DNA of 63,595 bases from Escherichia phage vB_EcoS_HdSG1. Both the position numbers and the translations under genes were made by a program. The stretch lies in sequence record MK373795.1; one strand, 5' to 3'. This document shows positions 59,938 through 60,976 of the stretch, in pieces (within the stretch, counting starts at the first letter, position 1; the number at the start of each line of letters is the position of its first letter). Under the pieces are notes generated by a model. It was not told where the DNA came from. It saw only the letters and a list, made by a program, of their open reading frames with translations, and ran no database searches.

Positions 59938-60232
59938 AACCTCACCCTTGATAATAATAAATCGATTAATTTTGAAATTCAGTTGCCGGTTTTATGTTTA
60001 TTTTTAGGCAATGTGTTTTGCAATGCAATATTGATATATTTTGTTTTTGTATTGCAATATTTTTGTATTGCAAAAATTACAACAGTCTGAAGGTGAGAAA
60101 TTGTACATTTATAAAGATCGGTGAAAAAATGCACAATTTATAAAGACCCCGTAATACATAAAACGGCGAAGCGAAGTGTATGAAAAATAAGGGAAAATTT
60201 TGAGAGTTGGGGGAACGTGTGAATTTATATTA
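59938..60232 (-). promoter_or_regulatory. early promoter/operator region next to the right terminal repeat
   Basis: AT-rich; two 16-bp direct repeats TTTTTGTATTGCAA at 60044 and 60060; TTGCAATGCAA palindrome 60018..60028; ATTTATAAAG at 60107, 60136, 60232; minus-strand TTGCAT, 16 nt, TAAAAA candidate. Confidence 0.45.
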
Positions 60233-60976
60233 TTTATAAAGGGGTCTCGTAGGGGTCGTCAGTAGACAACTCAAAAACAAAAAATCTTTATACAATTTAT
60301 ATAAATACACACATACACACATTTTTTACCTTACTTTTCATGCACTTACCTCCTTTCATTTCGTATATTAAGCGTTAATACATGAGCAATATGACATATA
60401 TTTGTTGCGCAACGACTGTGTGTTTTCTAACCAAACGAAAGATTACTTTATATACGTCCGCGCGTCTAACACAAAAGAAAAGTAGATTGCAAGCAATTTT
60501 TGCTGAGGTAACTCTCGAAGTGAAAGCGATTTGCGAGTTTGAATTTTTGTAGCCCGAAAACGATTCTATTTTATGGTATAAATGTCGGATTTTTCGGGCA
60601 AAGCCGGCTTTTCGGTGAGGTTGGGTGGCTGGGATCGGGGTAACGGGTAGCCCATAAAGCGAAAATAGCCGCGAAAACGGGGCACGCAGCGCGATTAAAT
60701 GGTTGGATCAGTGTAAGGGTGGCGGTGAGGGCGAAAATGCCGCAAAATCGCGTACAGGGAAGCAGGGAGTGGATCGCTGTAAGGGCGTATAAGGCGACTA
60801 AATTGGAGTCTATGGTAATGTACGGAAGAAGGATTCAGGTTCTTAGGGTGCGAATGGTGGAGCTATGGGTGAGGAATATGTGGTCAGCAGGGTGGCGCGG
60901 GAGGTTATGCAGGTACAAAAACGAAAGCGCCCCGTTGGACTTCAACAGGGCGCGGATTGTATAATGCAGTTAGAAG

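What the first reader, a model, noticed from the sequence alone, without database searches (positions are those of the whole stretch)
59938..60241. Early control region with direct repeats, and an ATTTATAAAG motif that coincides with the terminal-repeat boundary
Upstream of the first early gene lie two 16-bp direct repeats (TTTTTGTATTGCAA at 60044 and 60060), a TTGCAATGCAA palindrome (60018..60028) and three copies of ATTTATAAAG (60107, 60136, 60232). The last copy straddles the first base of the right terminal repeat (60233), and the same sequence starts the window. Repeated operator-like sites suggest regulated early transcription; the boundary motif may be part of the terminase cut or recognition site.
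Basis: seen in the sequence. Interest (0 to 1): 0.5.

Follow-up and report, generated by a model that had tools for sequence, protein, structure and literature searches.

The report
Conserved repeats at a phage terminal-repeat boundary
The stretch is real, conserved non-coding DNA of a 9g-like coliphage: a probable control cassette for the next early genes sits beside the inner edge of the 3.4-kb terminal repeat, and that edge lies inside a conserved 200-bp palindrome built around the repeated word TTTATAAAG.

Summary
The window is a complete Nonagvirus (9g-like, Queuovirinae) genome with an exact 3,363-bp direct terminal repeat (DTR).

**Observation.** All the motifs exist and are non-random.
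- TTTATAAAG occurs three times within 134 bp. It is invariant in 13 isolates and in every metagenomic contig that covers it.
- Three TTGY-N3-GCAA dyads lie within 60 bp.

- The DTR edge (60232|60233) sits at the foot of a helix between the third TTTATAAAG and an inverted copy 45 nt further in. This helix is the core of a conserved ~200-bp imperfect palindrome (60162-60360).
- The whole feature is the outer 295 bp of a 1,039-bp untranslated region. That region is better conserved than the neighbouring DTR genes.
- The closest analogue is phage T5's "Repeat Region 3" (injection-stop region).
- The gene at 59937 is not the first early gene; seven DTR genes precede it.

**Termini.**
- The right DTR end is identical in this genome and HdK1. 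It also coincides with the read-start hot spot published for 9g.
- The left end agrees to within 3 nt with HdK1. No hot spot was reported there for 9g.

**Verdict.** No promoter, DNA-binding protein or terminase interaction could be shown. Interest is moderate.

The parts
59320..59937 (-). 205-aa gene of unknown function (PHROG 18014). It is the first gene of the leftward operon downstream of the untranslated region. Its first ~110 nt belong to the two-allele cassette.
   Evidence: ORF list; PHROG hit; found only in Nonagvirus; 5' 113 nt show 0.81 pairwise identity against 0.90 for the whole gene.
59938..60976 (.). 1,039-bp untranslated region straddling the inner DTR edge. 295 bp lie in unique DNA (the finding) and 744 bp lie inside the DTR.
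   Evidence: No conserved ORF. Blocks at 0.94-0.97 pairwise identity compare with 0.69-0.80 for the adjacent DTR genes.
60016..60073 (.). Three operator-like sites TTTTG-YAW-TGCAA at 60016-28, 60045-57 and 60061-73. Their dyad cores TTGY-N3-GCAA lie at 60018-28, 60047-57 and 60063-73.
   Evidence: The cluster of 3 in 60 bp is unmatched in 300 shuffles. In 10 of 13 relatives they are replaced by three TTGY-N4-5-GCAA sites.
60098..60139 (.). Short inverted repeat AAATTGTACATTT / AAATGCACAATTT (13 nt, 92% complementary). Its arms overlap the 5' ends of TTTATAAAG copies 1 and 2.
   Evidence: the repeat finder I14.
60108..60116 (+). TTTATAAAG copy 1, 125 bp outside the DTR.
   Evidence: Invariant in 13 isolates and in the metagenomic contigs that cover it.
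60137..60145 (+). TTTATAAAG copy 2, 96 bp outside the DTR.
60233..60241 (+). TTTATAAAG copy 3, the first 9 bases of the DTR (same as window 1-9). The edge falls at 60232|60233.
   Evidence: HdK1's DTR starts 3 nt further in, at ATAAAGG.
60286..60294 (+). Inverted copy of the motif: CTTTATACA here, CTTTATAAA in 10 of 13 isolates. It pairs with copy 3.
   Evidence: Alignment; pair list; helix 5 is paired in 100% of cells.
60162..60360 (.). Conserved ~200-bp imperfect palindrome (70 pairs, centre ~60263) enclosing the DTR edge.
   Evidence: RNA fold, minus strand: -54.8 kcal/mol, z -7.4. RNA fold, plus strand: -46.9, z -4.6. DNA fold: z -3.5. 96% of cells are paired in 13 genomes against 40-57% when the partners are slid.
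60233..63595 (.). Right copy of the 3,363-bp direct terminal repeat; the left copy is 1-3363.
   Evidence: 0 mismatches. The right end GGGGCGGCTC| is identical to the HdK1 end and to the 9g read-start hot spot at 28,243.
60927..60953 (-). Terminator-like hairpin plus T-run that closes the DTR gene block.
   Evidence: A terminator is annotated at the homologous place in HdK1 and SP8.

Best explanation
The finding is the outer 295 bp of a ~1-kb conserved untranslated region that straddles the inner (left) edge of the 3,363-bp DTR of a 9g-like phage. It holds two separate cis elements.

**1. A control cassette next to the gene at 59937.** Three TTGY-N3-GCAA dyads probably form the promoter/operator cassette of the leftward early operon. 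Within the genus this cassette is exchanged as one unit with the 5' end of that gene.

**2. An end-formation site at the DTR edge.** In replicating concatemers the left genome end is made at the foot of a 7-9-bp helix. That helix forms between TTTATAAAG and its inverted copy 45 nt further in, at the core of a 200-bp palindrome. Two more direct copies lie 96 and 125 bp outside the repeat.

**Inferred mechanism.** The packaging nuclease (terminase, TerS/TerL at about 7.9-10.1 kb) recognises this repeat and palindrome architecture for the left cut. The right cut is made at a different, non-palindromic sequence (GGCGGCTC|TTAGATC). The 3.4 kb between the two cuts is duplicated by DNA synthesis, as in T7- and T5-type phages.

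**Shown:** the sequences, their statistics, their conservation, and the coincidence of the ends between isolates.
**Inferred:** which proteins act, and that the motif or palindrome is what they recognise.
For: - The DTR is exact.
- The right end is the same base in this genome, in HdK1 and at the published 9g hot spot. Ends are therefore sequence-specific in this genus.
- The left end agrees with HdK1 to within 3 nt although the unique lengths differ by 460 bp, which argues against a headful end. HdK1 ends were set where most reads ended abruptly.
- The motif is non-random and invariant in all isolates and metagenomic relatives.
- The sequence to the right of the cut is invariant, while the 28 bp to its left are variable at 0.74.
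- The palindrome is conserved and strongly non-random. The cut sits at the base of the TTTATAAAG/CTTTATAAA helix.
- Non-coding blocks are more conserved than the DTR genes.
- The dyad cluster is significant and is allele-linked to the gene's 5' end.
- Hairpin-containing intermediates are reported for T7 concatemer processing (cited in PMC4281155).
Against: - The 9g read-mapping study reported only one hot spot, at the right end, and none at this left edge.
- The window's own ends are of unknown provenance.
- The left ends of the two records differ by 3 nt.
- The right edge has no palindrome and no TTTATAAAG, so the two cuts cannot share this signal.
- Copies 1 and 2 lie outside the packaged left end, unlike lambda cosB sites.
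- The palindrome is conserved through invariance; only 1 of 70 pairs shows a compensatory change. DNA-level and RNA-level roles therefore cannot be separated.
- No strong promoter and no DNA-binding protein were found for the operator idea.
Confidence: 0.45

Rival explanations
1. **T5-like injection pause.** The untranslated repeat and palindrome region at the inner end of the DTR acts on entering DNA. After the right DTR has entered, with its promoter and seven small early genes, transfer pauses here until DTR-encoded proteins are made.
For: - The architecture matches T5 Repeat Region 3: a 1.2-kb untranslated region, mostly in the repeat and overrunning 270 bp into unique DNA. [quoted passage not shown]
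- Here the region is 1,039 bp, with 744 bp in the DTR and a 295-bp overrun. It contains repeats and a palindrome and its conservation exceeds that of the DTR genes.
- The 9g authors proposed that DNA enters from this (right) end, early genes first.
Against: - The paired DnaA boxes that characterise the T5 region are absent. Only one 1-mismatch box lies in 59900-61000, at the gene start.
- The DTR proteins match no named Pfam or NCBIfam family and only PHROG families of unknown function. Similarity to T5 A1/A2 was not tested directly.
- Two-step transfer has not been reported for this group in the papers searched.
Confidence: 0.15
2. **RNA-level element.** The palindrome acts in the leftward early transcript, for example as an RNase III processing or stabilising hairpin or as an attenuator between the DTR genes and the next operon. 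The DTR edge falls inside it by coincidence.
For: - The minus-strand RNA fold is very stable (-54.8 kcal/mol, z -7.4).
- On average it is more stable than the plus strand (-52.2 against -48.6 kcal/mol over 13 genomes).
- All variable pairs of the outer stem stay paired through G-U on the minus strand.
- It lies between two co-directional gene blocks.
Against: - Strand preference is inconsistent; the plus strand is favoured in HdK1 and BRET.
- Only one compensatory pair was found, and the shuffle control was not exceeded.
- There is no Rfam match.
- A strong terminator-like hairpin lies upstream, and no convincing promoter was found that would transcribe the palindrome.
- This reading does not explain copies 1 and 2, or the exact coincidence with the edge.
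Confidence: 0.2
3. **Promoter or origin elements.** The TTTATAAAG copies are ordinary AT-rich elements. They would be either -10-like hexamers (TATAAA) of tandem host promoters, or the unwinding element of a replication origin whose iterons are the GGATC..GTAAGGG repeats at 60630-60790.
For: - TATAAA is a 5/6 match to the -10 consensus. TTGTGC-17-TATAAA can be read on the minus strand at copy 1 (read directly from the sequence).
- The region is 24-36% G+C.
- Iteron-like repeats lie 400-550 bp away, and a D5-type primase/helicase gene lies at 54560-57109.
Against: - No copy has an acceptable -35 on the strand where genes lie, except weakly at copy 1. None of the candidates reaches the 99.99th percentile of genome-wide PWM scores.
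- The best-scoring minus-strand candidate (-10 TACAAT) is not conserved in 7 of 13 relatives.
- There are no DnaA or IHF sites.
- Neither idea explains the inverted copy or the edge coincidence.
Confidence: 0.1
4. **Artefact.** The left DTR edge in the record is not a physical end. Reads or assemblies could break at the palindrome, or the ends could have been copied by homology from HdK1. The motif-edge coincidence would then mean nothing for packaging.
For: - The 9g data showed no hot spot at this edge.
- Palindromes can truncate reads.
- A later Seuratvirus study fell back on homology-based reorientation, citing the HdK1 paper (Korf et al. 2019), after PhageTerm failed.
- The provenance of the window's ends is unknown.
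Against: - The window and HdK1 edges differ by 3 nt and the repeat lengths differ (3363 against 3367), so one is not a simple copy of the other.
- The right end is independently verified, and a DTR needs a second edge somewhere.
- Reads crossing the 9g end showed that a repeat exists.
Confidence: 0.1

Closest known systems
Phage T5 'Repeat Region 3' / injection stop signal region at the inner end of the left terminal repeat (Davison, bioRxiv 10.1101/866236)
   Same: - A large untranslated region (~1-1.2 kb) lies mostly inside a long DTR that carries early genes.
- It overruns a few hundred bp into unique DNA (270 bp in T5, 295 bp here).
- It is packed with direct repeats, inverted repeats and palindromes.
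- It is more conserved among relatives than the repeat's ORFs.
   Different: - No sequence similarity was looked for or expected.
- The T5 hallmark of paired DnaA boxes is absent.
- The repeat is 3.4 kb rather than 10 kb.
- Two-step injection is not known for 9g-like phages.
- The T5 comparison does not rest on an exact motif at the repeat edge.
T7/T3-type concatemer junction processing (exact DTR, sequence-specific cuts, hairpin intermediate)
   Same: - The ends are exact DTRs.
- The ends fall at fixed sequences in different isolates.
- A palindromic element lies at one side of the repeat. A hairpin-containing intermediate is reported for T7 (as cited in PMC4281155).
- From my own knowledge, T7 ends also carry arrays of a short repeated word.
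   Different: - The repeat is about 20 times longer and carries genes.
- The phage is a siphovirus without its own RNA polymerase.
- Its TerL is closest to Seuratvirus, Iggy and other siphovirus terminases.
- No sequence relation to T7 pac elements was tested.
Lambda cos (cosN cut site with three R-site TerS-binding repeats in cosB)
   Same: Three copies of one short word lie close to a terminase cut, with one copy at or next to the cut.
   Different: - Lambda makes cohesive ends, not a DTR.
- Lambda's R sites lie on the packaged side of the cut, whereas copies 1 and 2 here lie outside the repeat.
- There is no IHF site.
- TerS binding is untested.
- The lambda details are from my own knowledge.
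Lambdoid tripartite operators (OR1-3 type immunity cassettes)
   Same: - Three partially dyad-symmetric sites lie within ~60 bp just upstream of a gene.
- They exist in alternative allelic forms that travel with adjacent coding sequence.
   Different: - No repressor, Cro-like or any helix-turn-helix protein was detected nearby.
- There is no divergent gene pair here.
- No promoter was demonstrated.

Membership tests
Exact direct-terminal-repeat genome ends (T7/T5 packaging class) | Identical sequence at both genome ends | tested here: met
   1-3363 equals 60233-63595 with 0 mismatches.
Exact direct-terminal-repeat genome ends (T7/T5 packaging class) | Ends fall at the same sequence in independent isolates (sequence-specific, not headful) | tested here: inconclusive
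   Right end: the same base in the window, in HdK1 and at the 9g hot spot. Left end: window and HdK1 agree to within 3 nt, but no hot spot was reported there for 9g.
Exact direct-terminal-repeat genome ends (T7/T5 packaging class) | Read-start pile-ups at both ends and twofold coverage across the repeat | not testable with these tools
   No reads are available for this genome.
T5-type untranslated repeat region / injection stop signal | Large untranslated region at the inner end of a gene-bearing DTR, overrunning into unique DNA | tested here: met
   59938-60976 has no conserved ORF; 744 bp lie in the DTR and 295 bp outside it.
T5-type untranslated repeat region / injection stop signal | Dense direct repeats, inverted repeats and palindromes; conserved more than the repeat's ORFs | tested here: met
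   Repeats; palindrome; conservation 0.94-0.97 against 0.69-0.80.
T5-type untranslated repeat region / injection stop signal | Paired DnaA boxes in the inverted repeats | tested here: not met
   Only one box with 1 mismatch lies in 59900-61000, at 59939.
T5-type untranslated repeat region / injection stop signal | Two-step DNA transfer dependent on repeat-encoded proteins | not testable with these tools
   This needs infection experiments.
TerS-binding repeat array at a terminase site (lambda cosB / pac type) | Several copies of one short word next to the cut | tested here: met
   Three TTTATAAAG copies lie at -125, -96 and 0 from the edge, plus one inverted copy at +53.
TerS-binding repeat array at a terminase site (lambda cosB / pac type) | Binding by the small terminase subunit | not testable with these tools
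   Needs EMSA or footprinting with the product of window 7944-8552.
Sigma-70 promoter with operator array | -35 and -10 hexamers at 16-18 bp spacing on the gene's strand | tested here: inconclusive
   Only weak candidates were found. The consensus scan found 5 against 4.1 expected. The best PWM hits are below the 99.99th percentile, and the best minus-strand hit is not conserved.
Sigma-70 promoter with operator array | Repeated dyad-symmetric sites | tested here: met
   Three TTGY-N3-GCAA sites, one of them a perfect palindrome.
Sigma-70 promoter with operator array | A cognate DNA-binding regulator encoded nearby | tested here: not met
   Ten neighbouring proteins gave no significant Pfam or NCBIfam domain and only PHROG families of unknown function. 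The 205-aa protein has no PDB relative, and its AF2 model is unusable at pLDDT 47.7.
Known structured RNA family (Rfam) | Match to a covariance model at or near the gathering score | tested here: not met
   Only three chance-level hits, at 21-25 bits against gathering scores of 72-119.
Structured RNA (any) | Compensatory base changes supporting the helices | tested here: inconclusive
   1 of 70 pairs has a change on both sides, and the shuffle control is not exceeded. The sequences are too similar.

The most novel reading that the evidence does not exclude
9g-like phages handle their 3.4-kb gene-bearing terminal repeat in a T5-like way. The conserved palindrome and repeat region at the inner repeat edge would be a dual-purpose DNA signal. 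It would arrest or pause incoming DNA after the repeat-borne early genes have entered. It would also mark the site where the left end is made, possibly through a fold-back of the terminal TTTATAAAG...CTTTATAAA inverted repeat that primes duplication of the repeat. That would extend two-step delivery and hairpin-assisted repeat duplication to a small siphovirus group that lacks DnaA boxes.
Probability: 0.12. Interest if true: 0.65.

Novelty: new variant of a known kind. Interest (0 to 1): 0.38.

Why it matters
The signals that define the ends of long exact terminal repeats are poorly understood, even in T5. 9g-like phages (BASEL members, 7-deazaguanine-modified DNA) are becoming model and therapy-candidate phages.

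This analysis supplies three things:
- a short, invariant, testable sequence at one repeat edge;
- a 200-bp palindrome enclosing that edge;
- a right end that coincides in this genome, HdK1 and the 9g read data.

Together these give precise targets for studying end formation, for orienting and annotating Queuovirinae genomes correctly, and for engineering them. If the T5-like reading holds, it would also provide a smaller system for studying staged DNA entry.

Tried and rejected
- **Rfam.** An E-value search over 59500-61200 gave only chance miRNA and sRNA hits.
- **Neighbouring proteins.** Pfam and NCBIfam gave no significant hit for 10 neighbouring proteins; PHROGs matched only families of unknown function. 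A PDB sequence search of the 205-aa protein found nothing.
- **Structure prediction.** The single-sequence AlphaFold model of the 205-aa protein had pLDDT 47.7 and was unusable, so no fold search was run.
- **Promoter scans.** The sigma-70 consensus scan and my own PWM scan gave no discriminating promoter. The top genome-wide PWM hits fall mostly at positions annotated as coding in the homologous HdK1 map, so the method has little power here.
- **DnaA and IHF sites.** None of note.
- **Cross-genus test in Pseudomonas phage Iggy.** The paper reports a 1,091-bp DTR, but the record holds only one repeat copy, so the edge cannot be located.
- **Cross-genus test in Seuratvirus CAjan.** An analogous 630-bp gap exists, with its own repeats and strong folds. 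There is no sequence similarity to the window: local alignment scores of 23 and 27 against a shuffle mean of about 23.5. An apparent shared 'AGGGGT..TAGGGGT' is not significant and was dropped.
- **IMG/VR scan with the 14-mer TTTATAAAGGGGTC.** An 18-mer returned 8 loci that added no diversity for covariation.
- **Inverted repeat I7 (60144-61 / 60230-47).** Rejected, because its left arm is not conserved.
- **Strand asymmetry of the palindrome as evidence for RNA.** Weak and inconsistent.
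Full report
**What the window is.** The first 3,363 bases are repeated exactly at 60233-63595. The region 59000-61500 matches 17 records, all of genus Nonagvirus (9g-like, Queuovirinae), at 85-95% identity; the best are ESCO3 at 94.8% and HdK1 at 93.7%. A more sensitive search with 59938-60420 finds the same 17 records and nothing outside the genus. The window is therefore a complete 9g-like coliphage genome written with both copies of a direct terminal repeat (DTR).

The gene layout comes from the ORF list and the homologous HdK1 annotation:
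- seven small minus-strand genes in the DTR;
- plus-strand late genes from about 3.5 to 34 kb, with TerS and TerL at 7.9-10.1 kb in the window;
- minus-strand replication, modification and early genes from about 34 kb up to 59937.

**The observation.**
- ATTTATAAAG occurs only at 60107, 60136 and 60232. The 9-mer core has three independent copies against 0.73 expected genome-wide. With the local 29% G+C composition, 0.03 copies are expected in 451 bp, so P is about 5e-6.
- The 'two 16-bp repeats' are 14 bp exact with a 16-bp period.
- With the palindrome at 60018 they form three related sites, TTTTG-YAW-TGCAA, at 60016, 60045 and 60061.
- Each site contains a TTGY-N3-GCAA dyad. Three such dyads within 60 bp were never reached in 300 shuffles that preserve local composition.

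**What the surroundings add.** All flanking genes are on the minus strand. The gene starting at 59937 is preceded, in transcription order, by the seven DTR genes and a strong terminator-like hairpin at 60953-60927. It is therefore not the first early gene. The 9g paper places the early promoter in the divergent intergenic region at the other end of the repeat. The finding is the outer 295 bp of a 1,039-bp stretch (59938-60976) with no conserved ORF.

In an alignment of 13 isolates, several blocks of this stretch are better conserved than the adjacent genes.

| Segment | Mean pairwise identity |
|---|---|
| Non-coding 60076-60145 | 0.96 |
| Non-coding 60166-60204 | 0.97 |
| Non-coding 60233-60372 | 0.95 |
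| Non-coding 60471-60760 | 0.94 |
| Adjacent DTR genes | 0.69-0.80 |
| Unique-region genes | 0.90-0.92 |

All three TTTATAAAG copies are invariant in the 13 isolates. They are also invariant in every metagenomic contig that covers them, among five recovered from IMG/VR. The base before copy 3 varies (A or T), so the conserved unit begins exactly at DTR base 1.

**The dyad cluster.** The segment 59825-60075 occurs in two allelic forms.
- The window, ESCO3 and HdK1 (and one metagenomic contig) carry TTGY-N3-GCAA sites.
- The other ten isolates carry three sites at similar positions with N4-N5 spacers.
- The switch of allele coincides with strong divergence of the first ~110 nt of the 205-aa gene.
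- Within allele 1, HdK1 loses the perfect palindrome at site 1 and gains one at site 2.

The remaining ingredients of that label could not be found:
- The consensus promoter scan found 5 sites against 4.1 expected.
- My PWM scan gave nothing above the 99.97th percentile.
- The best minus-strand candidate (TTTTCA-16-TACAAT, 60127 to 60100) loses its -10 in 7 of 13 relatives.
- Ten neighbouring proteins have no recognisable DNA-binding domain.
- The 205-aa protein has no PDB relative and its single-sequence model is unusable.

**The terminal-repeat edge.** HdK1 is the only other record that carries both repeat copies. Its ends were set where most reads ended abruptly.
- Its repeat is 3,367 bp. 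It ends at the same base as the window (…GGGGCGGCTC|TTAGATCTC) and starts at ATAAAGG, 3 nt inside the window's TTTATAAAGG.
- The 9g paper reported a single read-start hot spot at position 28,243: 91 reverse reads started there and 23 reads ended there. The authors inferred a terminal repeat of unknown size.
- I located that position in the 9g record. It is the final C of GGGGCGGCTC, the same right end.

The right end therefore coincides in all three phages. The left end, which is the one in the finding, rests on two records that agree to within 3 nt although their unique parts differ by 460 bp. That argues for a sequence-determined end rather than a headful end. It lacks read-level support from 9g, where no hot spot was reported.

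The edge lies inside a long imperfect palindrome, 60162-60360.

| Fold of 60165-60355 | Energy (kcal/mol) | z-score |
|---|---|---|
| Minus-strand RNA | -54.8 | -7.4 |
| Plus-strand RNA | -46.9 | -4.6 |
| DNA | -23.6 | -3.5 |

- Its outer stem is the 24-nt inverted repeat 60174-97 / 60324-47.
- An inner helix pairs copy 3 (60235-41) with an inverted copy at 60286-92. The inverted copy reads CTTTATACA here and CTTTATAAA in 10 of 13 isolates, where the helix is 9 bp.
- The edge 60232|60233 is at the foot of that helix.
- The structure is kept in all 13 genomes: 96% of cells are paired, against 40-57% for slid controls.
- It is kept through invariance. Only one pair shows a compensatory change and the shuffle control is not exceeded.
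- Strand preference is weak and inconsistent, so a DNA role and an RNA role cannot be told apart.
- The right edge has no comparable structure (z -0.3). It has different repeats: ACGTTATAGTA twice plus GTTATAGTA once, and a thrice-repeated 23-mer.

**How it most likely works.** I read the stretch as two adjacent cis elements: a promoter/operator cassette for the 59937 operon, and the left end-formation site of the DTR.
- Sequence-specific ends, an invariant word at the cut, extra copies nearby and a conserved palindrome around the cut are what a recognition and cleavage site for the packaging nuclease would look like.
- The two edges differ completely in sequence. This implies two different cuts with duplication of the intervening 3.4 kb by synthesis, as proposed for T7-type phages, where a hairpin-containing intermediate has been reported (cited in PMC4281155).
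- Everything after 'sequence-specific ends' is inference.
- The main rivals are a T5-like role in DNA entry, an RNA hairpin in the early transcript, ordinary promoter or origin elements, and an artefactual left end. Each is listed with its own evidence.

**Comparison with what is known.** The closest described object is T5's Repeat Region 3.
- It is a 1.2-kb untranslated region, mostly inside the left terminal repeat.
- It overruns 270 bp into unique DNA and is dense with repeats, inverted repeats and palindromes.
- It is more conserved than the repeat's ORFs and is the candidate injection stop signal.
- The nonagvirus region matches all these architectural features but lacks T5's paired DnaA boxes, so I do not file it as a member.
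- I found no paper describing the size or edges of the nonagvirus repeat beyond the 9g hot spot. The HdK1 paper does not discuss its repeat.
- Iggy, a relative by TerL at 62% identity, is reported to have a 1,091-bp DTR. This supports DTR packaging in this terminase lineage.

**Verdict.** This is a sequence-unrelated variant of a known kind of element, the conserved non-coding signal region at the inner edge of a long, gene-bearing terminal repeat. It has a precise, testable motif and palindrome at the edge. Interest is moderate.

Noticed in passing
window 60630-60790 (= 398-558 in the left DTR copy): Iteron-like direct repeats lie in the G-rich part of the untranslated DTR region. TGGATCAGTGTAAGGG and TGGATCGCTGTAAGGG are 66 bp apart, with a looser GGGATCGGGGTAACGGG about 70 bp upstream. 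GCGAAAACGGGGCA and GCGAAAATGCCGCA are 60 bp apart. The block is well conserved (about 0.94). It could be an origin or another protein-binding array.
   Followed up: partly
window 60525-60600: This is the most conserved block of the whole 2.5-kb alignment (0.97). It contains TGGTATAAAT, which reads as an extended -10 on the + strand. That overlaps a minus-strand TTGCCC-17-TACCAT candidate (60601 to 60573). The block is followed by a short GC hairpin and T-run, so it may encode a small transcript.
   Followed up: partly
window 2961-3346 and 3069-3144 (= 63193-63578 and 63301-63376): The right DTR edge has its own repeat set. GTTATAGTA occurs three times (ACGTTATAGTA twice), with the last copy ending 17 nt before the edge and only one other copy in the genome. 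A 23-mer, CGTGCCGAAAATACCAGGTAACA, is repeated three times at a 26-27 bp period in the divergent promoter region.
   Followed up: partly
window 3363|3364 and 63595: The right physical end …GCCGCGGGGCGGCTC| is the same base in this genome, in HdK1 and at the read-start hot spot (28,243) published for 9g. The 9g GenBank record is not linearised at that end, so its repeat is not visible in the record.
   Followed up: yes
window 59825-60075: A two-allele recombination cassette covers the first ~110 nt of the 205-aa gene and the three dyad sites. Allele 1 is carried by the window, ESCO3, HdK1 and one metagenomic contig. Allele 2 is carried by the other ten isolates and four metagenomic contigs.
   Followed up: partly
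L011 (JenP1) 2482-2955, corresponding to window ~60750-60930: JenP1 carries an HNH homing-endonuclease gene inserted in the untranslated DTR region. In the T5 group an HNH gene likewise splits untranslated repeat regions (Davison preprint).
   Followed up: no
window 59049 (insertion point); L007, L008, L009, L012: JenP2, BRET, PD328 and SP8 carry an extra ~340-bp gene between the homologues of the 117-aa and 89-aa genes. The window lacks it.
   Followed up: no
L018 (Seuratvirus CAjan, NC_028776) 3964-4593 = record 49963-50592: The sister genus has a 630-bp gap at the analogous position, between minus-strand early genes. It has its own repeated words (CCCTATAAA three times, many ATAGGGT/ACCCTAT in both orientations) and strongly non-random folding (z -4 to -6). 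It has no sequence similarity to the nonagvirus region. It may mark the unknown Seuratvirus repeat edge.
   Followed up: partly
L017 1-40 and L016 1990-2029 (Pseudomonas phage Iggy, MN029011): The 15-mer TAAATAACGCCCGTT occurs 17 nt after the record start and again ending 17 nt before the record end, so it flanks the point where the record was opened. The record contains only one copy of the reported 1,091-bp repeat.
   Followed up: partly
window 60977-61225 and 61756-62001; 61255-61518 and 62815-63120: The DTR holds two pairs of paralogous small genes. Both members of one pair match PHROG 3199 and both members of the other match PHROG 13865. All are of unknown function.
   Followed up: no
L001 3581-3844 (HdK1rev_00095) and L004 1002-1136 (JenK1), L012 1943-2077 (SP8_0042): Small CDSs annotated in relatives inside the untranslated region; the HdK1 one spans the DTR edge. 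They are probably spurious. The alignment has indels that are not multiples of three, and the window has no matching ORF.
   Followed up: partly
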